In this document: positions 1-30,710 of the stretch, in pieces
Layout of the letters: each line of letters opens with the position of its first letter
Numbering within the stretch: position 1 is the stretch's first letter
Origin: a cyanobacterium endosymbiont of Epithemia turgida isolate EtSB Lake Yunoko
GTDB lineage: Bacteria; Cyanobacteriota; Cyanobacteriia; Cyanobacteriales; Microcystaceae
Assembly (NCBI RefSeq): GCF_000829235.1
Contig: NZ_AP012549.1
Span: 180,001-212,000 of the forward strand
Direction: 5' to 3'
DNA length: 32,000 nt
Made by a program: the position numbers and the translations under genes
Notes under the pieces: model-generated
What the model was told of the DNA's origin: nothing
The model's input: the letters and a program-made list of their open reading frames with translations, nothing else
The model's database searches: none

Positions 1-1858
1 TTTATTTTTGTCATAATGACTAGATTGTATCGATTATTAATTATAAACTTGAATATTAGGAGAGAATGGGATAAACTTAAAAGCACAATTAACCTAAAAA
101 AATAGTTTTATAATTGCTTAATATATCTATTGGTTACGATGAATGAAAATTAATTTATTTATAAAAAATTTTATTATAAAGTAATATAATATTTGCGACA
201 ATTTAATTGTATCTATATCTTGATCCTGATTCTATATTTTTATTTATTTTTAAAAAATTTATCTAGTTGAATTTATAATAACTTATTTAGAGATACATAA
301 AGTAAAAAAAATATCTATGATTAGATTAAAATATAATCATTTACTTATAGAAAAAATAATGTTAATTAATTGTGATAAAAAAGAGAATTAGTTTAGAAAA
401 TAATTATTAAATGGCTTTAAATAAGTGATTAACAAGTCATCAATTTTTTACCAACTACTTGAATAATCTAAGCAAAGACTGGAACAATTATGACAAGAAG
501 GCCTCAGCTAGATAAAAGTCTAACTATTCGACAATTAACATAGATTTTTACAAAATTTAATTATAGGTAAAGTTCTTATTATTATCCATAATGGAACAAT
601 TAATATGCTTGTCTTTATAAGAATTAGTATTAAACTATTTCTAATAATACTGCTATTTTATGAATTTTAAAATAAAAAGTAATTTAATCATTGAATAACC
701 AAGAGTAGATTTACAATATTAGAAGTGTTATGTTAAGGTTTTATATATAATATAATTATAATGTCTATTATATATAAAACCTAATTATTTTAAAGAATTT
801 TATTTTAATTTTTTAAAAAAAATATTAATTTTTATAACTTAAAAACTTGAACTATGCCCTTATATAAAAATACTTTAAATATAATTTATAACCTATTACA
901 AAGATAATAAAAAAAACAGATGATCTCTATCGTAAAAATATACAGTATTATATTTCATTTTTTATCATTGCTGTCACTCCATCGGCTATTCCTCTTTTTT
1001 TTGTAAATAAGAAATTTTTAATAGCTTGACAAGTTTTTCAGACAAGAGTAATTGTTAGTAGCCATTACAGGTTATTTTTTAAACAAATAGTACGTGATAC
1101 GAAAATCAATCAAGTCTATACTAGGATTTTATAGTACAATATCAGCATCTTGGGTAAGGGCTGATACGTTAACATTAGGATAAAATACTTCTGTTTATCT
1201 TTGAAGTTTAATGGAAGGAAAAAAATTGATCAGTAAATTTATATATTATACAGGAGATATTTTAAAAAGCATAGGAACAATTTGTTGAGAAAGTTAGTAA
1301 CAGAAAGAAAATATATAATTGGAGTTTTTATCTATTGGTATAAAAATTTTCCTTTCTGAGAAAACTTAAACTTTAAGATAAATTATTATTTACCAAAAAC
1401 CTATTACAGCAATCAAATAAAAACATGTTATTATTTAATTGATAAGACTAAAAAGTGCAGACTAAAGTAGTTTAATTAATACTATTTTTAATACAAAACT
1501 AGCTGAGGTTAGTGTTTTGTCTAGTACTAAAAAAATTAACTTTTTGAAATACTGCTGGTTATGAATAAGTCAATCGCCCTTAATTTCATAAACAACTTCC
1601 AAATTCTTGTATGAAAGCTTACTTATTATTAATTACTCCTATTCTTAGCCTGCCTTTATAAATAAACGTTATTTTTTTTATGCTGTCAAATCTGAGGGAA
1701 TAGACTTACCATCATGAGTTTACTTTCGATTCAGAGACTGTTTTGAACGAAACTTTAAGTAAGTGACATATAAGAAAATAAAATTTTTTAGGTAATTTTT
1801 TTTTCTTTAAGCCATTTAGATGATTCTTTTGGAATGTTAGTTCAGCGAAATACATCAT

Positions 1859-1880
1859 ATAGTTATCTTAAGATAACTAT
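1859..1880. repeat. 22-bp perfect palindrome (atagttatctt|aagataactat)
   Basis: Read directly: 1859-1880 equals its own reverse complement. It lies about 130 nt beyond the stop of the minus-strand monooxygenase gene. Confidence 0.9.
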
Positions 1881-2012
1881 TATAAATAGTCTCCTATGAG
1901 TTCTTTTAGATGAAGAACAAATTGACCAATTTTCTGCTCTTATTATTCTTTTAAAATTTAGATAAAAATTGATTACACCTAAAAATCTAGAATGATTTAC
2001 TTAATTGATCGT

Positions 2013-3967: not shown

Positions 3968-4902
3968 GTTGAATGTCCAGTATCTGAAGTTTATGTATAA
4001 GATCTTGATAATAGGAGTAATCACTCAATATACTGACTTTAATCATCTCTTAAAGAGATTATTTTCGATAATTTTCTAAAAAATTGTATAATACATTATT
4101 TTTTGTGATTTTTATTTATTTATTGTAATCTAAACTCCTTAACCAGTTAAATTATCGAGAAAGCTTTTGGTATTTTTATTGAAGCTCTATCAAATAAGAT
4201 TGCTGGCACAACCGTTGTAGTTGCTGTTGATTTTAACTTACTGCCTAACGTAATTTAAAAATTTGCTCAGTTACAAACTTTATTCCTTATTTAACCCAAA
4301 TATTTTTGTATTTATTGTCTTAATCGATATAGGATTAAGCTAAATGAGCTAAGACAAATTTTTTGAGTATCCTCATGTTGCAAAGTCACCTCCATCATGT
4401 TCTTCATTTTTAAGGGTTTAATGATCAGAGAAGCTTTTTTCCTTGAACTAGACTGTGATACCCTAGGGCAGGATTTTCCCAAGTAATTTATGAAATAATT
4501 AGTCTCAATGTACCATAACTTGATTTTTTAAAACTTTAATTTTTATCTTTAAATCAATTGGTGTTTTAGGGTAATTTTTTTAGTGTTAAAAGTTTATAAA
4601 AATATTTGAAAATGCCCTCTATAAATAAGAGCTTATTTCATCAATTAAATGGCTACTGTTATTATAATCGCTAAAATTAGGGAAACAATTAATGTTTAAT
4701 CGTATCCTTAAATATACTACTAATCGTCCTATTTTTTATCTCAATTGAGCGCTTAATTCTCTTTTCTAAATAAAAATCTCTTCAGTTATCTTTATCTCCT
4801 CAGGGAATAATTAAATTTTTATTACTATCGTTTGTACATAAGAGATTTCCTCACAATACACTCACATTTCACATTAATATAAAACACAATATTCAGTTCA
4901 GG

Positions 4903-4938
4903 CGTTTGCTCCAATGATTATAATCATTGGAGCAAACG
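4903..4938. repeat. 36-bp perfect palindrome with no loop
   Basis: cgtttgctccaatgatta|taatcattggagcaaacg was checked base by base and is its own reverse complement. It lies about 335 nt beyond the stop of the minus-strand hydrolase gene. Confidence 0.95.
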
Positions 4939-5273
4939 ATTTAGTCTATCATAGTAAATAGACTCCTAAAAATAACCTATGCTTTCTTGATTGTCATTAA
5001 GTCAATCTATACTTAATGAATATTGTCTATATAAATTCATGGACAAGAAACAAAGAATATACAGATGATGATAATTTCATGTTGTCAATCGCAAAGATTG
5101 AGAGAAATAGATGTTTGCAGAAATAATTACTTTTTGCAGTCCCCAAATCTGTTTTTGAATTAATGTTAAACAATTAAAGAATTAAGCTCTTTGGCAAGGT
5201 GGATGGCACACTCCAGAAAAAATAGATTATCAAGAAGCATACATAGAGATTTCGTCAATAAGTAGCATAAATT

Positions 5274-12492: not shown

Positions 12493-13992
12493 ATCTAGTT
12501 AGATGTTAAAATTTAAGTAAGTATCACCATATAATAACACTCGGATTTATAAACGGCTTTACTCTGACTTAATCTGGGATAATTAGGATCCTTTCTGAGA
12601 ACTAATCATCAATAATCCTATAAAAATCAGTTATTTTAAAGATAAGTTAAAAAAAATAAACATCTGACTCATCGGGTAAAAATTATTACTATCATTGGTT
12701 CTGTAGGCAATTTTTAAACAAATAGTTAATGACCGAATAAATGTAACGAGGTTTAACTTTTTACCTGTAAGCAATGAAACTCGCACTTTTATGAGATCTC
12801 TATTATGTGATCTTTTCTGAAAGATTGGAAACTTCTATCAATTTACTATTAATACTTACAGTGTCTCAAAATTCAGGTGTAACAAATTTTGGTGGATAAA
12901 TTCTCTTCGACCAAGAGAAGTTATTCCCTCTTGTTGATAAATAAAGTAATCAAGCGAATACCGCCTTAATTACTTTGAACTTATGGTCAAAATCTTGCTA
13001 TTCAATCAAATATTAAGGTTAATATTTAAAGAAATTCAAAAACAGTGGGTTATCTACAAAATTGCTGAAAAAACTAACCTATTAAATCTTGATTCATGTA
13101 TTATTTCCATAATAGACCGAGACAAAAAAGAGTTTAGATTCAACTTATTTTAATAAATTCACTTATCATCTCTAAATTTTACTGAAAATAAATAATATTT
13201 GTATATTAACGAAATTGAATTAGTGTTTCGATTATTACAAAAATCAAGAAACACTAATCAGTAAATAATTTTAGAATAGATTATAGAAGACTATGATAGT
13301 GTTATATTGACAAGGAGAGATTTAGGAGTAAAAATAATTTATTAACTAATTCCCGTGCTAAAAAAATAGACTGTTCAGTTATGTAATTATAAAAGAATGC
13401 CCGCCATTACCGCTACCTAAATACTAGACAGCACATTTCATAACTTCTATCGGACTCGTGCTTAAACTATTAATTTTGCTGATGTTAAAGACTGTATCAT
13501 TTTCACTAAAGTGGTAAAAATTCTAGCTGCAATTACCCTCTTTGAAAGGTATTAAATTTTTTAAGACACTTCTCTAGACAAGATTAATGATACCGAAGCC
13601 TAAAATTGCGCTCTTATTATTTTCAATAAATCTTCAACTTACGGCATACCGTCACCCTTACAGGATAAAATAATCCCTTTTTATTAGTTTTAAGAAATTA
13701 TCTTCATTGGTCCATAATTATTATTATTTTCTATGAAAAAGTTTATTAACGTCTTGATTTGATTTAGGAACTGATTTTTGCTTAATTAAAGAGGAGGTAT
13801 ATTTTTTTACAATATTAGTTAGTCAAACAAACTTAAATTTATTTTATTTGAGACAATTTAACTTTAAACCAGGAAAGCTAGAATAGCTTTTACATTTTAG
13901 TAATACTATTAATTAATAAGTAAAACAATAAATAAGATTAAATAAATCTAAAACATTAAAATGATTAAAAAGAGCAAATACGCCAATGTTTC

Positions 13993-14205
13993 TGAGAATC
14001 AATTCTTAAGTTTTCTTGATACAAATAACCGTATTAGGTGTATAAAGATGTTCTCTAAAAGTTTAGTTACCAATCGAGCTAAAAATCAATAAAAATAGGG
14101 TATGTATTCAACTAAGGAACTCGATAAAAGTTTTCAATCTCTACTTTTCATCAACTCTCTAATATTCGATATTAATTTATTGAAGAATTTTAATGTCTAA
14201 TGTTT
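13993..14205 (-). pseudogene. Decayed tandem duplicate of the hemH 3' end (last ~71 codons)
   Basis: Direct repeat with a ~213-214 nt offset to 14206-14420. For example, 14070-14100 ccaatcgagctaaaaatcaataaaaataggg matches 14283-14314 ccagtcgagctaaagaatcaataaaaataggg, and 14119-14134 matches 14333-14348 at 16/16. My by-eye estimate of overall identity is about 75-80%. The minus-strand translation H*TLKFFNKLISNIRELMKSRD*KLLSSSLVEYIPYFY*FLARLVTKLLEN parallels the intact [50 protein letters not shown]. Confidence 0.8.
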
Positions 14206-15234
14206 TTAGGGACAAATTTTTATTTTTTTTAAACGAATAACTGTATCAAAAGTACAAGGAGGTTCTTTAAGAGATTTAGTCACCAGTCGAGCTAAAGAAT
14301 CAATAAAAATAGGGTGGGTATTTAACGCAGGCACTCGATAAAAGTTTTTAATCCCTGCTTTTTTAGCAATTTCTCGATATTCAATATCAATTTCTTGAAG
14401 AGTTTCAATATGTTCTGAAACAAAACTGATAGGAACTACTAATAAGTCTTTGACTCCTTTTTTCCCTAATTCTTTTAAAGAATCTTCTGTGTAAGGTTTG
14501 AGCCATTCTATCGGACCAACTCGACTTTGATAAGCCAGAGTGAAATCATTTGGCCGATTGAGGGTTTTCATGATTAAGTGAGTACAAGCTTCAATTTCTG
14601 CTTGATAGGGATCTCCGGCTTTGTCAACATAACTTTGAGGGACTCCATGAGCACTGAAGAAAATATGGATATGACAAGGATTTTCACATTTATCTAATTC
14701 TTGAGTAATTAAATCGGCCATCGCTGTTAAATAATCAGGATGATCATACCATGAGGCAATCAAAGTATAGTTAATTTGTGTAAGATTACTATCAGATTGC
14801 CACATTTTTTCAAGCACTTGAAAGCTGGATCCACTGGTGCTGATGGAATATTGAGGATACAAAGGAAAAATGACTAAACGCTCTATTCTGTCTCGTTTGA
14901 TGTGATTGATTGCCTCTTCAGTAAAGGGGTGCCAATAACGCATCCCAATATAAATTTGAGCATCTTGACCAATTTCTGCTAATTTTTTCCCGAGAGCTTT
15001 TCCTTGAGCTTCAGTAATTCTTCTCAAAGGGGAACCTCCTCCAATTTTTTCATAATTTTTCTTAGATTTTTCACTTCTTAGTAGAGAAATTAACCAAGCT
15101 AAGGGCTTTTGTAACCAAGGGAAAGGTAATCGAATGATTTCTGGGTCAGAAAATAGATTGAACAAAAAGGGGCGAACATCTTGTAACTGTTCCGGACCCC
15201 CTAAATTTAGTAATAAAACCCCGACGCGATCCAT
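14206..15234 (-). CDS. hemH: Ferrochelatase, apparently lacking the C-terminal CAB helix
   Basis: Motifs [18 protein letters not shown] and [14 protein letters not shown]. The start is set at [13 protein letters not shown] (ATG 15234-15232) rather than the track's 15369, whose upstream 45 codons show no ferrochelatase similarity. The 342-aa product ends ...[22 protein letters not shown]. Confidence 0.9.
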
Positions 15235-15361: not shown

Positions 15362-15995
15362 TTGGTCACAATTTTAAAGACCTGGAGTCATCAATATTCT
15401 TGGTTGCATAACACTATTTCCCGTTTAGTATCCCTAAGTGTCGAAGGTGAAAGGAAGTTTTTTTACCTTACCATTGAAAATGTTCCTCTGAAGTCTGATA
15501 CTAAGATTTTAGATTTATGTTATGGCGGAGGTAAAGCCACTAACTTTTTTTCTACTAAAACAACCAGACTTAACGTTTTATTAACTCCTCTTTATCAAAC
15601 AGTTAAAGCAGTTTTTGAGGCTAATTATTTTGGCGAGCGAGCTAAACAAATGCCTTTTGCTCAATTTAAATTTGGTTGAGTTAATACCAGATTTGCTTTT
15701 ATTGTTCTCCACAAAATGTAAGCCAAGCAGCTTGAAGAAATTTTTAAAAGTTTATCAGGTTCTTAACACTGAAAGTTTTGTTGCTGTAACTGACTTACAT
15801 AAGCCGACTAACCGTTTCGTTTATTTTGTCCATCTCTAACTATTTTTATATGAATAGTGAATATTTGAAATGAAGACAGCCTAAAAGTTACTCAACACTT
15901 ACTTAGTGACAAAGTTAACTTCAGTAGTTTTTCGAGCTTATCAACAACGACTTTATGGAGGAGGAAGTTTGCAAGTAATTCAAGTTAAGAAATAA
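15362..15995 (+). pseudogene. Class I SAM-dependent methyltransferase, frameshifted with in-frame stops
   Basis: Three collinear fragments. The first, 15362-15679, reads [26 protein letters not shown]...ILDLCYGGGKATNFF (motif I-like)...MPFAQFKF. The second, 15615-15839, is in another frame. The third is a terminal piece ...FRAYQQRLYGGGSLQVIQVKK* ending at 15995, with stops at about 15855-15884. Confidence 0.55.
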
Positions 15996-23386: not shown

Positions 23387-25077
23387 TTGATTAATAAGTA
23401 TACTCGAAATAATTTTTATTAAAATCAATCTTATGAATAAGAGACTTTTTAAAATTTTGGTTTTCCTCATAACTTGATTTGAATAAAACATTAATCTAAG
23501 TATTTTTTGTTCAAGAAACTTACTACTATTACTAATCATTTGGTGTTAATTTTCTTTACTTTGATGCGTATTAAGCTCGTTTCAGAAGAAACCGCAAAGT
23601 AAATTCATGATAAATTAAAGTTTATAAAAAAATAAGTTTATATATTTATAAATTTTGTCAATCTTCAACTATAAAGTTTGTTTACTTAGTATTCTATAGG
23701 TTGATTTCACATCATATAGTTGGATACGGTTAAAAATTTTTTTGATAAAGAGAAAACATAAAATATATAATTATATTAATCTAAAATAAATAATAGTATT
23801 AAGTTGTCCAAATAGGAATATTCTGAAGTCCAGAGATATATAGGGTTTTATTTTAATTGGCTTCGATCTAAATAAAAGTTAATCAAAACCTATATATCTA
23901 TATTAACTTTTTTAAGTTACAATATACGTAGAAAGTATTTTTTATTCAAAACCCTCTTGTTTTCTATAATGTGTTTTAAACTCTGATAAGAGTATCTAAA
24001 CTTTTTTAAAGTAATACCATTCTCGTTAAGTTTAATTTTTTTTTCTAGCTAATGAGCAACTCTCGGCCCTGTATATATTTGCTAATATACTGATATATAT
24101 TTTAATATATGAGCTAATTATTAAATAATTTGATTGGTTAACAAGGTTTTTTCTTCTTTATTTTAAATTCTTATTATTAATATTTTTGTCTATCTCTTCT
24201 TTTAATTTACTAAATTTTTTTGTATTTTTTTACTATAATCATAATCTATTACTACAGTGAATAAAATATTTTTGGGATTCCTTTCTAAAAAATTTTTAGA
24301 AGAAAGTGTTATCTTTTCAATTAGACGAAATTTTAACTTCCCATGTATTTATATTTTATTTTAAACAAACTAAAATATGAAGCTAAATAAAATTTTTTAA
24401 CAATTTTTTGTATAAATCATTTCTTTCTTACTAAGAGTTAATGTTTTTATGATTAAATTGAGTAAAATTTAGTATTTACATAATTTTTTTTGATAATTAT
24501 ATTGTTATATATATAAGTTATATAAATAAACCTATTACTATCTTATTTAAGATATCAAGACCGGGAATGGTAATTTATCTAAATTGAGAGTCTCATTTAT
24601 TAAACTAAATCGAGTATTTGATACTATAGGTATAAATTAAATTAAAATATTGCAGATATGATAACATCATATACATTAAAAATATGTATTTTAACAACTA
24701 TATTATTGATAATAAAATTATGTGTATATATAAATATGTATATTAAGTATATCTAGAGAACTTAAAGTTTTAAAAATCTAAAATAGTGTAGTATTATTTT
24801 ACATATTTTACTACTTAAATAATATTAGTTCACAGAATAGTTTCTAAAGTAATTATGTAGAATAAATAAACTTTCAGTCACAGAATGATAGTTTTAATCT
24901 CATTTTTTATTTATTAGGTTATTTTAGGTTAAAGTTAATAAAGACTAAAAATTTTATTTCTAATTAAGATAGAGTGTAAATATAATTATTTTTGCAATTT
25001 GATTAGGTTTTTAGATTAAATTATTAAAGTTCAAATTTAGTTTTTAGTTATTATAATATCTATCGATAATTTTATTT

Positions 25078-25107
25078 ATATTAGATTTTATATATAAAAT
25101 CTAATAT
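25078..25107. repeat. 30-bp perfect palindrome
   Basis: atattagattttata|tataaaatctaatat equals its own reverse complement. It lies in the 2.4-kb AT-rich spacer. Confidence 0.9.
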
Positions 25108-25416
25108 CTATCTATTAATTTTTTATATATAAATAGAAATATAAAAAAATATTGTAATTTATACTTATAAATATATTTTTTTATCAGAAAATTATATACT
25201 TTACTATGTTTGTTTATTAACTTTTGATAAAAAATAGTAGCAATATTTATATTCAAAACTAATTTAAAATATCTAATTTACGCAATTTTAAATCTAAATT
25301 AAAACTAAAATATAAACTACCTAAATTAGTATTTAGGTAACAACTTATAACTATAATATACCTATTAATAGAGACTATTATATTAATAAATTACAACAAG
25401 ATTTACATAAAATTTT

Positions 25417-25450
25417 ACTTTATAAAACTATTTTTATAGTTTTATAAAGT
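25417..25450. repeat. Perfect hairpin: 15-bp stem, 4-nt loop
   Basis: actttataaaactat (25417-25431) is the exact reverse complement of atagttttataaagt (25436-25450). The loop is tttt. It lies about 320 nt upstream of rsmB. Confidence 0.9.
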
Positions 25451-25767
25451 CTCAATAAAGTTAATACACGATCAAATTTTTTTATTTTTAATAAAAATAA
25501 ATTTAATATAAAATAAATAAAAAAATAATATCAATAATTATATATTAATAGCAGTATTTATTGAAGTATGATACTTCGAACAAAAAATATTATTTCAATA
25601 TTTATCGAAGTATTTTATACTATTTTTATGAATTGCTATATAAAAAGTTTTTATATTAAATATTTAGGAATATTTTACTCATAAATTAATTATTTACTAG
25701 TCAACATTGAGCCAGTTTATGTTAGCTTAGATAGTCTACTCAATAAAAAAATGGTTTTGTAAAAACT

Positions 25768-27614: not shown

Positions 27615-27915
27615 GAAATAATCAAGAGCAAAAACTATCGATCAATAATTTTATTGCCGATCATTAAATTAATTTATTGGCCATTAAAATAACAACCGCA
27701 GTCTATTCATTTTCATAAAGCCCTATTTGTGGATACGATGAGGTTAACAACTACACCCAATGATAACTGTTAATATTTAAGACTATAGTTGTTATTTAAA
27801 AACAATAATAAGTAAAGCCAATTTATCTTTTGTACTCTCTCTTGATTTCTAGACATAAAGATAAATTTTCTGTAGACGATTAGTCGAAAAATGAGTTAAT
27901 AAATATAGTTTTAAG

Positions 27916-27956
27916 CACTTAGATTGATCAAATGTTTAATTTGATCAATCTAAGTG
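27916..27956. repeat. Perfect hairpin: 17-bp stem, 7-nt loop
   Basis: cacttagattgatcaaa (27916-27932) is the exact reverse complement of tttgatcaatctaagtg (27940-27956). Two more pairs follow beyond a 1-nt bulge. It lies about 300 nt downstream of the TerB-like gene. Confidence 0.9.
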
Positions 27957-28638
27957 TTTGAGTTAATCGTTAATTATTTTAATACAAAAATATTGACGAA
28001 GTAAAATTTTATCAATTAGTTTGACTGACTTTTACTTCATCTTCTATTGAAGATAAGTAATTTCTTATATTTTTTGTTGATAGAGGTTTTTAAAAAGTCA
28101 TTGAATAATAAATTTTTAATCTTTAGAGAATTTGCTAACTCAATTGCTGCATCAACTAAAAAACAATTTTATGATTGTCTATATTCTCTGGGGTTAACTT
28201 AAAAAACAAACAATTCACTACAATTGTTTATAACTAAATTTATTTTAAATTCTTAACACCATTATACAAGATTTTAGATACATCGAATCTAAGTCTTTAT
28301 AAACTCGGTGCGCTCTACTACAAAACTGATGAAAAATCTCTATATAAATAAAAACAATAAAACTAATTTGTGTAATTTATTTTTGCCTAGGAAATAAGCT
28401 TCATAAAATGATTGCCGCTGACTAGATTAGGAGATATTTTTCACATTTGTAATATGTTAAATTGTTCAAAAGTCCGATATTTTAACGCATAAAAAGCAAT
28501 TACAATAAGTAAAACTTTACCTATTTAAAAATAAAAATGTTGTTTATATTTTATAATGAATATTATTAATTTTTAAAATATAAACAATGTTGCCGTAATT
28601 TTTGAGATAAGTACTCTGACTTACAAAATACTTCGGTA

Positions 28639-29188
28639 CGATATAATACTTTAGATCTAAAGTACTATATAGATAGTTATTTTCTTTTATTAGCAAAATA
28701 TGGTGTCGTATAAAAATTTTAGAAGATAAACTGTTTGTACGACTACAAAAAAATTATCTCGAAAAAATTTATGCTATGCAATGAGAATTATTACCCTTAT
28801 GGAGGACAAATTATCCTCCATAAGGGTAATAATTAAATTTTATTAATAAAAGAAGAGCTCTTTAATTTAACCTAAGATAAAAATATACTTCCTAAACTGT
28901 TATAATCACGTTATTCAACTGTTCGATATTTTGGAGACTTATTAAAAACTTACCTAAAGTTTAATGAATATTTATTTATCCTCTATAAATAATAGAATGA
29001 ACGAAATCATGTAAGTCTTAACAGGTATCCCTACTATTTTTATTACTCTAACTTTTATTGTAGGAATTTATAATATGAATTTTGAATATATACCATAATT
29101 TTATTGGTGTTAAAATTATATTACTGGTCTAGGTTTAATAGCAACTGTTACGACAAGTTTATTATTTTACTTTTCCCTACGGGGATAG
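28639..29188 (+). pseudogene. corA: corA (Mg2+/Co2+ channel) pseudogene, C-terminal two thirds recognisable
   Basis: Conceptual translation of 28871-29188: IYFLNCYNHVIQLFDILETY*KLT*SLMNIYLSSINNRMNEIM*VLTGIPTIFITLTFIVGIYNMNFEYIP*FYWC*NYITGLGLIATVTTSLLFYFSLRG*. This follows the CorA C-terminal pattern (YxxDVYDH..., DVYLSS, N-E-x-M-K-x-LT, IFxPLTFIxGIYGMNF, MPE, TM2, basic tail). In a different frame, 28669-28704 reads IDSYFLLLAKYG, corresponding to the (V/I)DxYF block. The 5' limit is unresolved and may reach about 28130. Confidence 0.8.
28786..28834. repeat. Perfect hairpin: 21-bp stem, 7-nt loop, inside the corA relic
   Basis: aattattacccttatggagga (28786-28806) is the exact reverse complement of tcctccataagggtaataatt (28814-28834). 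The loop is caaatta. Confidence 0.95.
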
Positions 29189-30220
29189 TTTTATTAATTT
29201 TATAGTCTTAACAAAACCCTAAATTAATTAATAGCAATAACCAATTAAGTAGATAAAATCATTACAGTTATATTTCTTTGCCAAATATTAGTACTTTCTT
29301 AAAATTTTCAGATAATACTAAGTTAGACAAACCCAAAGAAATCTCAAATAGAAAAGTAGCTACTAAAGTAAAAACATTATATAATTGTATTATTATAAGA
29401 AATTTAACAAGCATAATCAAAAGAGCAAAAAATATTAAAATTAACTAGTAATCTATAAATTAATACCATAACAATAACAAAAGCAGAAATCTTATATTTA
29501 AGTATTCTAGAATAGAAAATCAGAAAAATTGTAGGCAAAATAAAATATTTAAAATATATATTTATAAAAATAATTTATAGATAGATTATCTAGAAAAGAG
29601 AAGCATTATAGAAGTTTTTGATAAGGTTTTAAAACTAACTTTTAAATAAATAAAAATTTTAATAATACTCTTAGACAAAGGTAAAAATATTTTAAATAAT
29701 TAAAGACAATCTAAATTTTCTTAAAAAAGATAAATAAAAATTAATTTTTTTTAAACTTTTAAAATATACTATAAACGGAAAAACATAGAAGATGGCACAA
29801 ATGGCACAATAATCATCTATTTTTTTAAAAAAAGAAATTAATATTGTAATTTCATTAAAATAAATCTGTCTATACTGAATGTATTAATTAAAACTATATC
29901 GGAACAATAATAAAATAAAAAAAAGATACCCTCTGTTTTGTATGATAAATCATAGTTTTATATTAAACACCATGAAAAATGGTATCAAATAAAAGTTTAT
30001 AAAACTGTAGGAAGGATATTTAAAAATAAATATTATTTAGCTAGGTCAGCTAAATAAAATCCTGCTTAAAAAAAGTTACCCTAAAAAATATAAATTAGAG
30101 CAATAGAAATTTAGCTCTATCTTAAAAAAGATAGAAATATAAAATTATTGAAGTTTTGAACGTTTACTTAAAGCTACTTACTTGTCTACTTAGAACACAA
30201 ACTTTCCGAGCAAAAAACAG

Positions 30221-30226
30221 TATACT
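30221..30226 (+). promoter_or_regulatory. Candidate -10 box for rnpB
   Basis: tatact ends 7 nt upstream of the predicted RNase P RNA 5' end. I found no convincing -35 element. Confidence 0.3.
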
Positions 30227-30233
30227 AAACATA

Positions 30234-30620
30234 GGAAAGAGTTAGCGAGGGAGTTGCGGATTCGTCCTTGAGGCGAATTCGAGGAAAGTCCGGGCTTCCT
30301 AAAGACCAAACTTGCTGGGTAACTCCCAGTGCGCGTGAGCGTGAGGATAGTGCCACAGAAAAATACCGCATTTTTTAGGCATTGTCTAAAAAATGTAAGG
30401 GTGCAAAGGTGCGGTAAAAGCGCACCAGCAGCATCGTGAGGTGCTGGCTCGGTAAACCCCGGTGGGAAGCAAGGTCGGAGGAACTAAGGTTGGTCTTTTT
30501 CCGTTCCGTTATTGGAGAACCGCTTGAGGCGTTTGGTAACAAGCGTTCCAGATAGATAATTCCCCCTATAAGACTAATATTTTATAGGAACAGAACCCGG
30601 CTTATGTCTAACTCTTTCCC
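30234..30620 (+). ncRNA. rnpB: RNase P RNA, bacterial type A
   Basis: P1 pairs ggaaagagttag (30234-30245) with ctaactctttcc (30608-30619). Universally conserved P4 strands are present: gaggaaagtccgggct and acagaacccggcttat. The agtgccacagaaa and ggtaaaagcgcaccagc regions are typical of cyanobacterial rnpB. The gene is a sharp GC-rich island in AT-rich surroundings. Confidence 0.95.
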
Positions 30621-30710
30621 CTTTCCTTAATCATTATTTGGCGTCTATCCTTACTAATATAGGTGGCACAGTGAAGAACTACTGCCCTGAAAGGATACTA
30701 TCTGAGAACA

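What the first reader, a model, noticed from the sequence alone, without database searches (positions are those of the whole stretch)
13950..14420. hemH is truncated by a nonsense codon just before the CAB-domain linker and is followed by a decayed tandem copy of its own 3' end
Seen in sequence: the last ~213 nt of hemH (14206-14420) are repeated directly downstream (13993-14205) at roughly 75-80% identity, with indels and stops. The repeat keeps register through the end of the gene. Intact-copy codons ata aaa att tgt ccc TAA aaa cat align with tta aga att gat tct CAG aaa cat in the decayed copy, which then continues tgg cgt (..LRIDSQKHWRI). The functional copy therefore stops exactly where the decayed copy still has Gln. 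The decayed copy continues into a Q-x-x-W segment that, from my memory of cyanobacterial HemH (..K-L-Y-P-Q-E-x-W-x-W-G.. linker preceding the CAB helix with its W-N-G-R-x-A-M-x-G-F motif), is the start of the linker. Downstream of 13985 I find no recognisable CAB motif, only AT-rich sequence.

Established knowledge: cyanobacterial and plastid type II ferrochelatases carry a C-terminal chlorophyll a/b-binding (CAB/Hlip-like) transmembrane helix. Engineered Synechocystis enzymes lacking only that helix remain catalytically active, but regulation of chlorophyll versus haem flux is altered (work of Sobotka and colleagues, as I recall).

Inference: this organism makes a soluble or linker-only ferrochelatase. 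The likely history is a tandem duplication, then a C-to-T nonsense change, then decay of everything downstream. That would make sense if chlorophyll metabolism or photosystems are reduced or lost.
Basis: partly seen in the sequence, partly recalled or inferred. Interest (0 to 1): 0.7.

Follow-up and report, generated by a model that had tools for sequence, protein, structure and literature searches.

The report
Ferrochelatase gene that lost its chlorophyll-binding tail
In a non-photosynthetic, nitrogen-fixing cyanobacterial endosymbiont of a diatom, the haem-making enzyme ferrochelatase has lost its chlorophyll-binding tail because 218 bases of the gene's end were duplicated out of frame. The shortened protein is already published, so this is ordinary gene decay with a well-preserved history.

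Summary
hemH (window 14206-15234, minus strand, 342 aa) is followed head-to-tail by a decayed copy of its last ~215 nt. Copy 1 is 14199-14413 and copy 2 is 13984-14198; they are 77% identical (E 1e-40) and form the only repeat in the 32-kb window.

The window comes from a diatom "spheroid body" (diazoplast) genome. The same duplication, with the same junction, occurs in four relatives. It is absent from EcSB, EpSB-like genomes, Crocosphaera and UCYN-A.

The unit is 218 nt (3n+2), so the duplication itself put everything downstream out of frame. Duplicating that unit in silico in the unduplicated EcSB gene reproduces the real 376-aa R. gibberula product. The TAA that replaces Gln (Synechocystis Q344) is a later trim, confined to the window's own clade.

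A stop-riddled remnant of the tail survives at about 13908-13983. It is homologous to EcSB's in-frame degenerate tail, and no CAB motif remains.

The catalytic domain is under strong purifying selection (dN/dS 0.06-0.15). The product keeps almost the whole linker, like the engineered, active FeChΔ347.

The truncation was published in 2026 (PMC12903740). The duplication mechanism appears to be unreported. Interest is low to moderate.

The parts
14206..15234 (-). hemH coding sequence, 342 aa. It comprises a complete ferrochelatase catalytic domain plus almost the whole linker (region II), with no CAB helix.
   Evidence: ORF and translation. PF00762 matches profile positions 2-316 of 317, E 1e-121. 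It aligns to solved ferrochelatases over residues 3-323. It is 75% identical to Synechocystis HemH, ending at the residue equivalent to P343. dN/dS is 0.06-0.15 against relatives.
14199..14413 (-). Copy 1 of the duplicated unit. It covers the 3' end of the working gene, from the His codon of SEHIETLQ to 7 nt past the stop.
   Evidence: Self-BLAST. Unit boundaries come from the junction shared with relatives.
14206..14208 (-). TAA stop that replaces the Gln codon (CAA/CAG) of the conserved YPQERW. It is equivalent to Synechocystis Q344.
   Evidence: Alignments. CP076462.1 has the same TAA, and the P0001 contig has TGA at the same codon. R. gibberula still has CAA there, and R. gibba has a 13-nt deletion instead.
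14197..14200 (-). Duplication junction, between 14199 and 14198. The sequence reads ...aaacatt|agacattaaaattc, corresponding to GAACATT|ACATATTGAAACTC in the least decayed relative.
   Evidence: The junction is at the same place in all five genomes that carry the duplication.
13984..14198 (-). Copy 2, a decayed non-coding duplicate of the hemH 3' end. It is 77% identical to copy 1, with indels and with stops when read in the hemH frame.
   Evidence: It diverges about twice as fast between genomes as copy 1: 72-75% against about 87% identity.
13908..13983 (-). Remnant of the original C-terminal (CAB) coding region, directly after copy 2. It reads QKHWRICSF*SF*CFRFI*SYLLFYLLIN and has no chlorophyll-binding motif.
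   Evidence: tblastn of the EcSB in-frame tail hits window 14018-13908 at E 2e-4. The canonical CAB peptide finds nothing above noise. DNA alignments with eight degenerate tails and with intact CAB genes.

Best explanation
The window comes from a diatom spheroid-body (diazoplast) genome of the Epithemia turgida / E. adnata type. Its hemH is a working ferrochelatase whose chlorophyll-binding C-terminal helix has been lost in steps.

1. In an ancestor shared with EcSB and the P0003 contig, the CAB-coding stretch lost its E-x-x-N-G-R motif through substitutions and a net loss of about 9-11 nt.
2. A 218-nt segment was duplicated in tandem. It runs from ACATATTG in the SEHIETLQ codons to GAACATT in the QEHW codons. 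Because 218 is 3n+2, translation runs from copy 1 into copy 2 out of frame. The old tail was replaced by about 31 junk residues, a state still seen in the R. gibberula endosymbiont.
3. Different lineages then trimmed the junk. The window's clade acquired CAA to TAA at the Gln codon. R. gibba acquired a 13-nt deletion. A sister lineage of R. gibba (P0004) deleted one repeat unit by recombination between the copies.
4. Copy 2 and the old tail now drift as non-coding DNA.

The 342-aa product keeps the catalytic domain and the linker, so it should behave like the engineered FeChΔ347. That enzyme is an active monomer that is soluble when made recombinantly and lacks pigment-linked regulation.

Shown: the duplication, the junction, the frame, the shared remnant and the purifying selection. 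Inferred: the order of steps 1 and 2, and the enzyme's behaviour.
For: - **Duplication.** It is present in the window, CP076462.1, the P0001 contig, and the R. gibba and R. gibberula endosymbionts. It is absent from EcSB, P0003, P0004, P0005, the EpSB-like genome, Crocosphaera and UCYN-A4.
- **Junction.** It is homologous in all five carriers.
- **Unit length.** 218 nt, mod 3 = 2. In-silico duplication in the EcSB gene gives a 376-aa product ending ...[35 protein letters not shown]. This matches the real R. gibberula product almost exactly.
- **Single origin.** The second copies of four genomes cluster together, apart from the first copies.
- **Collapse in P0004.** It is a clean copy-1/copy-2 chimera with the switch at ATGCGGTTATT.
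- **Tail remnant.** It is homologous to the EcSB tail. The length changes are shared by all eight degenerate tails.
- **Selection.** Catalytic dN/dS is 0.06-0.15, with 0 nonsynonymous and 8 synonymous differences against CP076462.1.
- **Family.** Full PF00762 match and no PF00504 signal.
- **Position of the stop.** It replaces Synechocystis Q344.
- **Engineered counterpart.** FeChΔ347 is soluble and active with a higher kcat. Removing the linker as well inactivates the enzyme (PMC3563542).
- **Literature agreement.** Published HemH lengths (387, 371, 376, 344, 342, 342) match my ORFs. The literature links loss of the extension with loss of the chlorophyll pathway (PMC12903740; PMC5638926).
Against: - The order 'motif decay, then duplication' is not proven. 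A three-gene local phylogeny does not resolve EcSB, P0003 and R. gibberula (bootstrap 11-39% for a clade of duplication carriers). P0004 shows the duplication can collapse, so EcSB and P0003 might be secondary single-copy states.
- Placement of the indels between degenerate tails and intact CAB genes differs between alignment runs: 9 nt at W-N-G, and 8+2 nt.
- The two R. gibberula copies cluster with each other. This needs gene conversion or slow decay to fit a single origin.
- No expression, protein or enzyme data were available for this organism.
Confidence: 0.85

Rival explanations
1. One reading: tandem duplication, then a C-to-T nonsense mutation that truncates the protein, then decay of everything downstream including an until-then intact CAB helix.
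For: The stop does sit at a codon that is Gln in copy 2 and in all orthologues. The duplication is older than the stop, because it is shared with genomes that lack the stop.
Against: The 218-nt unit shifts the frame, so the tail was already disconnected before the nonsense change. Without the TAA, the window's reading frame would end three codons later at a TAG at the junction. EcSB and P0003 have no duplication and no such stop, yet they carry the same degenerate tail.
Confidence: 0.08
2. Duplication first. The out-of-frame duplication arose on the stem of the whole EcSB + P0003 + window group and was itself what released the CAB helix from selection. The shared decay followed. EcSB and P0003 later lost one unit by recombination, which re-fused the decayed tail in frame.
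For: Collapse of the duplication by recombination between copies is demonstrated in P0004. The local phylogeny does not place EcSB or P0003 clearly outside the duplication carriers.
Against: The published six-genome phylogeny groups EaSB, EtSB, RaSB and RgSB as close relatives (PMC12903740). The 3' end of the EcSB gene shows none of the changes specific to copy 2, such as the CGT-to-TGT change and the 1-nt deletion shared by the second copies of the window and R. gibba. Full-length symbiont genes (P0005, P0007) already show relaxed selection on the CAB codons without any duplication (dN/dS 0.57).
Confidence: 0.2
3. Assembly or sequencing artefact: a falsely expanded repeat or an erroneous stop codon.
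For: None, beyond the general caution that repeats can be misassembled.
Against: The two copies differ at 23% of sites, so they cannot be confused by an assembler. The same structure is seen in five genomes from different studies. The identical protein is encoded in a 97%-identical genome. An independent Logan assembly matches the window base for base over 7 kb.
Confidence: 0.01
4. Copy 2 is a functional element in its own right, such as a small ORF, a regulatory 3' UTR or an antisense RNA.
For: It has persisted in five lineages. Small ORFs of 43 and 32 aa lie on the opposite strand (13961-14092 and 14102-14200).
Against: It diverges about twice as fast as copy 1 between genomes. It has stops and indels that differ between genomes. 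It was deleted without trace in P0004. No terminator-like site was found nearby, and promoter-like sites in the region are no more frequent than in shuffled sequence.
Confidence: 0.03

Closest known systems
HemH of the Rhopalodiacean diatom endosymbionts EtSB and EaSB as described in PMC12903740 (BMC Genomics 2026)
   Same: It has the same protein length (342 aa) and the same absence of the C-terminal extension.
   Different: That paper reports protein lengths and an alignment only. It calls the RgSB extension 'dissimilar' without explaining it. Here the extension is shown to be the out-of-frame reading of a 218-nt tandem duplicate, and the duplication, its junction and its collapse in one lineage are described.
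Engineered Synechocystis FeChΔ347 / ΔH347 (Sobotka et al. 2011, as summarised in Storm et al. 2013, PMC3563542)
   Same: It has the catalytic domain plus linker without the CAB helix. The natural protein ends at the residue equivalent to 343, three residues short of the engineered one.
   Different: The window's form is natural, fixed in a lineage, and sits in a cell that makes no chlorophyll. The activity and membrane association of the natural form are untested.
Full-length type II ferrochelatase of cyanobacteria and plastids (387 aa, CAB/Hlip-like helix)
   Same: The catalytic domain and linker are 75-82% identical to those of Synechocystis and Rippkaea.
   Different: The helix with the E-x-x-N-G-R chlorophyll-binding motif is missing from the product and unrecognisable in the DNA.
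Gene decay by small tandem duplications in reductive endosymbiont genomes
   Same: It is a short, out-of-frame, head-to-tail duplication at a few bases of microhomology (ACAT), followed by drift of the orphaned part.
   Different: Here only a dispensable domain was cut off and the rest of the gene stays under strong purifying selection, so the result is domain loss rather than gene loss.

Membership tests
Ferrochelatase (Pfam PF00762; protoporphyrin ferrochelatase HemH) | Full-length match to the family profile above the curated cut-off | tested here: met
   406 bits against a cut-off of 27, covering profile positions 2-316 of 317. Human ferrochelatase structures match at E 3e-75 over residues 3-323.
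Ferrochelatase (Pfam PF00762; protoporphyrin ferrochelatase HemH) | Conserved active-site motifs (His of FSAHG; H-I-E-T-L acidic stretch) | tested here: met
   [11 protein letters not shown] and [15 protein letters not shown] are identical to Synechocystis and align with the human enzyme motifs. That these residues are catalytic is from my own knowledge of the family.
Ferrochelatase (Pfam PF00762; protoporphyrin ferrochelatase HemH) | Evidence that the gene is still maintained by selection | tested here: met
   dN/dS is 0.06-0.15 over codons 1-330 against nine relatives.
Ferrochelatase (Pfam PF00762; protoporphyrin ferrochelatase HemH) | Enzyme activity (insertion of Fe2+ into protoporphyrin IX) | not testable with these tools
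   This needs a recombinant enzyme assay or complementation.
Type II (cyanobacterial/plastid) ferrochelatase with C-terminal CAB domain | C-terminal hydrophobic helix with the chlorophyll-binding motif (..AEVWNGRLAM..) | tested here: not met
   The product ends at the residue equivalent to 343. tblastn with the CAB peptide finds nothing above noise in the window. PF00504 gives a weak hit only in free-living Rippkaea and none here. No 19-residue hydrophobic window occurs in the last 60 aa.
Type II (cyanobacterial/plastid) ferrochelatase with C-terminal CAB domain | Linker (region II, about residues 325-346) between the catalytic domain and the CAB helix | tested here: met
   [22 protein letters not shown] aligns with Synechocystis residues 321-343. 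Domain limits are from PMC3563542.
Type II (cyanobacterial/plastid) ferrochelatase with C-terminal CAB domain | Descent from a CAB-bearing ancestor (orthology) | tested here: met
   The nearest free-living relatives (Rippkaea, Crocosphaera) and UCYN-A have the 387-aa form. Gene order (PfkB, YqeG, hemH, PAP2) is shared with the full-length EpSB-like locus. A remnant of the tail lies downstream.
Tandem segmental duplication | Two adjacent head-to-tail copies with similarity far above chance and a definable junction | tested here: met
   E 1e-40. It is the only repeat in the 32-kb window. The junction is shared by five genomes. TRF is negative, as expected for two copies at 77% identity.
Pseudogene fragment (copy 2 and tail remnant) | Disrupted reading frame and faster divergence than the working copy | tested here: met
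   Stops and indels occur in the hemH frame. Between genomes, copy 2 is 72-75% identical against about 87% for copy 1.

The most novel reading that the evidence does not exclude
The hemH 3' end of diatom diazoplasts may be a natural, stepwise deletion series for the CAB domain that tracks loss of chlorophyll synthesis.

The stages seen are:
- full-length genes with mutated pigment-binding residues (EpSB-like, P0005, P0006);
- a hydrophobic tail without the motif that may still anchor the enzyme in the membrane (EcSB);
- a junk tail from an out-of-frame duplication (RgSB);
- clean truncations (EtSB, EaSB, RaSB).

The duplication itself is a dynamic marker, gained once and collapsed at least once. 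If these forms differ in activity or location, they would show what the CAB domain does when no chlorophyll is made.
Probability: 0.35. Interest if true: 0.4.

Novelty: already known. Interest (0 to 1): 0.3.

Why it matters
It confirms, at the DNA level, that a cyanobacterium which gave up photosynthesis keeps haem synthesis but sheds the chlorophyll-sensing part of ferrochelatase. It also shows how that happened.

It explains a published oddity: the 'dissimilar' C-terminal extension of the R. gibberula endosymbiont enzyme is an out-of-frame reading of the duplicate.

It offers naturally occurring counterparts of the engineered ΔCAB enzyme.

The shared junction and its collapse in one lineage could serve as a rare-genomic-change marker for relationships among diazoplast lineages that short gene trees do not resolve.

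None of this changes current understanding of ferrochelatase or of endosymbiont genome reduction.

Tried and rejected
- **Tandem Repeats Finder** found nothing. The two copies are too few and too divergent, so BLAST and the repeat finder were used instead.
- **Canonical CAB helix search.** I searched all six frames of the whole window by tblastn. Only noise came back, with the best hit at E 0.76 at an unrelated place. A hidden in-frame CAB ORF is rejected.
- **Exact indels that destroyed the CAB motif.** Two MAFFT runs place them differently. I claim only a shared net shortening of about 9-11 nt.
- **Local phylogeny.** I tried to resolve whether the duplication carriers form one clade using yqeG + hemH + PAP2 with bootstrapping. 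It was unresolved, at 11-39%.
- **Terminator or promoter tied to the repeat.** No terminator-like site lies near the repeat, and promoter-like sites in the region are no more frequent than in shuffled sequence.
- **Pfam on the dead region downstream of copy 2.** Translation confirms that all frames there are broken.
- **Sobotka et al. 2011 (PMC3091120)** is not held. Its results are cited only through PMC3563542.
- **Literature searches** for 'spheroid body' + ferrochelatase and for hemH + tandem duplication returned nothing relevant.
Full report
**What is in the sequence.** On the minus strand, an ORF runs from ATG 15234 to TAA 14206-14208. It encodes a 342-aa ferrochelatase ending ...[18 protein letters not shown]. 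Pfam PF00762 matches it end to end (profile positions 2-316 of 317, E 1e-121). Solved ferrochelatases align over residues 3-323.

Directly downstream lies a second, decayed copy of the gene's last ~215 nt.
- The repeat finder gives 68 nt at 85% and 22 nt at 91%, with spacing 213-214.
- Self-BLAST gives 77.6% identity over 214 columns, E 1.2e-40.
- It is the only repeat detected in the whole 32-kb window.
- Tandem Repeats Finder is negative, as expected for two copies at this divergence.

Using the junction shared with relatives, copy 1 is 14199-14413 and copy 2 is 13984-14198.

**Where the window comes from.** The closest genomes are the cyanobacterial endosymbionts ('spheroid bodies' or diazoplasts) of the diatoms Rhopalodia gibba, R. 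gibberula and Epithemia clementina, at 92-94% protein identity. Free-living Crocosphaera follows at 79% and UCYN-A4 at 76%.

The exact 342-aa protein is encoded in CP076462.1, a 2.78-Mb chromosome that is 97% identical to the window over 7 kb. It is also encoded in a Logan assembly of SRR29904087 that is identical to the window over 7 kb. The stop and the repeat are therefore not errors.

Published HemH lengths for these endosymbionts are 387 (EpSB), 371 (EcSB), 376 (RgSB), 344 (RaSB), 342 (EaSB) and 342 (EtSB) (supplement of PMC12903740). They equal the ORFs I read from the DNA. The window is thus of the EtSB/EaSB type.

**The full-length state.** Crocosphaera, Rippkaea, Synechocystis and UCYN-A4 all have 387 aa ending ...NMKMYPQERWxWG(M/L)TTAAEVWNGRLAM(V/L)GF...GLL*. 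Window P342 aligns with Synechocystis P343, and the stop replaces Q344.

In Synechocystis the catalytic domain is residues 1-324, followed by a linker and then the CAB helix. The engineered FeChΔ347 is soluble, monomeric and active with a higher kcat, whereas removing the linker as well inactivates the enzyme (PMC3563542). The window's protein therefore keeps almost the whole linker. The stop is at the end of the linker, not before it.

**The duplication is shared and is itself the truncating event.** Self-BLAST of orthologous loci finds the duplication in five genomes: the window, CP076462.1, a JGI metagenome contig (P0001), and the R. gibba and R. gibberula endosymbionts. It is absent from EcSB, two Logan contigs (P0003, P0004), a 3.1-Mb relative (P0005), an EpSB-like 2.48-Mb genome (P0007), Crocosphaera and UCYN-A4.

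The junction is at the same place in all five carriers. The least decayed, R. gibberula, reads ...CAAAAACATT|ACATATTGAAACTC. The unit runs from ACATATTG (in the codons for SEHIETLQ) to GAACATT (in the codons for QEHW). It is 218 nt, which is 3n+2.

As a direct test, I duplicated that 218-nt unit in silico in the unduplicated EcSB gene. The predicted product has 376 aa and ends ...[35 protein letters not shown]. This is almost identical to the real 376-aa R. gibberula product, which ends ...[35 protein letters not shown].

So the duplication alone disconnected the old tail and added about 31 junk residues. The 'dissimilar C-terminal extension' noted for RgSB in PMC12903740 is that junk.

**Later trimming.** The window and CP076462.1 have TAA at the Gln codon, and P0001 has TGA at the same codon. 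R. gibberula still has CAA. R. gibba has a 13-nt deletion that gives ...TPQNITY*. The nonsense codon is therefore younger than the duplication and confined to the window's own clade. Without it, the window's frame would stop three codons later at a TAG at the junction.

P0004 is the closest relative of the R. gibba endosymbiont (96.6% nt identity) and has a single copy. That copy is a clean chimera. Every informative site upstream of ATGCGGTTATT matches R. gibba copy 1, and those downstream almost all match copy 2 and its tail. In that lineage one unit was deleted by recombination between the copies.

**Copy 2 is drifting.** Between genomes, first copies are about 87% identical and second copies 72-75%. 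The second copies of the window, CP076462.1, P0001 and R. gibba cluster together, apart from all first copies, which fits a single old duplication. The two R. gibberula copies cluster with each other at 86% identity, which needs gene conversion or slow decay. No terminator-like site lies nearby, and promoter-like sites in the region are no more frequent than in shuffled sequence.

**The old tail.** Copy 2 continues into sequence that aligns with the in-frame tail of the EcSB gene (YPQEHWRGCSFLTTVLFLVYLSSLTYLLAN**). tblastn of that tail hits window 14018-13908 at E 2e-4, reading QENLRIDSQKHWRICSF*SF*CFRFI*SYLLFYLLIN.

The canonical CAB peptide finds nothing in the window. PF00504 gives a weak hit only in free-living Rippkaea.

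All eight degenerate tails are mutually alignable and share a net shortening of about 9-11 nt relative to intact CAB genes. These are EcSB, P0003, P0004 and the five duplication carriers. The exact indel placement differs between runs. The motif was therefore destroyed in a common ancestor of this group.

Even the symbiont genes that keep a 387-aa ORF show relaxed selection on these codons. They read AAKIWNTRLVIVGF, VADIWNAGLIIVGF and TIEVWNTRLAIIGF. Their dN/dS is 0.57, against 0.06-0.07 in free-living and UCYN-A pairs.

Whether the motif decay or the duplication came first is not settled. My three-gene local tree does not resolve EcSB, P0003 and R. gibberula, and collapse of the duplication is possible. 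The published phylogeny groups EaSB, EtSB, RaSB and RgSB as close relatives, which favours decay first.

**The gene still works.** Over codons 1-330, dN/dS is 0.06-0.15 against nine relatives. There are 0 nonsynonymous and 8 synonymous differences against CP076462.1. The active-site motifs are intact. The last 60 residues contain no hydrophobic 19-residue window, unlike EcSB (FLTTVLFLVYLSSLTYLLA, mean hydropathy 1.9) and the full-length forms. By analogy with FeChΔ347, the product is most likely an active, CAB-less enzyme. This is an inference and was not tested.

**Biological context.** These endosymbionts lack photosystems. In EtSB, all genes of the chlorophyll-a pathway are pseudogenised or undetected (PMC5638926). 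PMC12903740 already states that EaSB, EtSB and RaSB HemH have no C-terminal extension, that EpSB keeps a conserved one, and that this roughly follows chlorophyll-synthesis capacity. Its supplement notes a truncation 'by 40+ aa' for hemH.

None of the papers I searched or read mentions the tandem duplication.

**Verdict.** It is wrong on three points:
- the position of the stop relative to the linker;
- what cut the tail off (the out-of-frame duplication, not the nonsense codon);
- the absence of any tail remnant.

The protein-level result is already published. The duplication mechanism, the explanation of the RgSB extension and the collapse in one lineage are new details of an ordinary decay process.

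Noticed in passing
window 15362-15679 (+): A 105-aa ORF lies just upstream of hemH on the other strand, with no Pfam match. The supplement of PMC12903740 pairs the 105-aa EaSB gene KPI85-04810 with a 207-aa class I SAM-dependent methyltransferase of Rippkaea. It is probably a truncated remnant.
   Followed up: partly
window about 12696-13780 (+): The 1.5-kb gene-free stretch between PAP2 and hemH copy 2 shows tblastx similarity to the region downstream of hemH in a 3.1-Mb relative (L088). That region still holds a 57-aa fragment with a pyruvate kinase (PF00224) hit. In the window all frames are broken, so it is probably a dead pyruvate kinase pseudogene.
   Followed up: partly
window 1-2000, 23400-25700, 27700-30700: There are long stretches with 18-25% G+C and no ORF of 100 aa or more, against 31-40% in the genes. 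This fits the low coding density and many dead genes reported for these endosymbionts.
   Followed up: no
L086 (Logan SRR31326947) 2199-2650; also L087: The closest relative of the R. gibba endosymbiont has a single hemH 3' end that is a clean chimera of R. gibba copy 1 and copy 2, switching at ATGCGGTTATT. The duplication was removed there by recombination, leaving a 338-aa product ending ...AVICYKKT*.
   Followed up: yes
L002 (R. gibberula endosymbiont) 4001-5131: The published 376-aa HemH with a 'dissimilar' C-terminal extension is explained by read-through from copy 1 into copy 2 in the wrong frame.
   Followed up: yes
L088 and L089 (P0005, P0007), hemH codons 343-387; P0006 (protein only): These endosymbiont genes keep a 387-aa ORF but have changed the chlorophyll-binding residues: E to K or D, and G to T or A in WNGR. 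For P0005 against P0007, dN/dS is 0.57 for these codons, against about 0.07 in free-living relatives. Pfam no longer detects the CAB motif in P0005 or P0007.
   Followed up: partly
L003 (EcSB) 5030-5116: The EcSB HemH keeps an in-frame 28-residue tail that is strongly hydrophobic (FLTTVLFLVYLSSLTYLLA) but has no chlorophyll-binding motif. It could still be a membrane anchor, or simply not yet be interrupted.
   Followed up: partly
P0047 (ENA contig, 347 aa): A Crocosphaera-like HemH ends in an unrelated ...TFKHENVSPRTLAVGTDYCC. This is probably a frameshift or assembly error in a metagenome contig.
   Followed up: no
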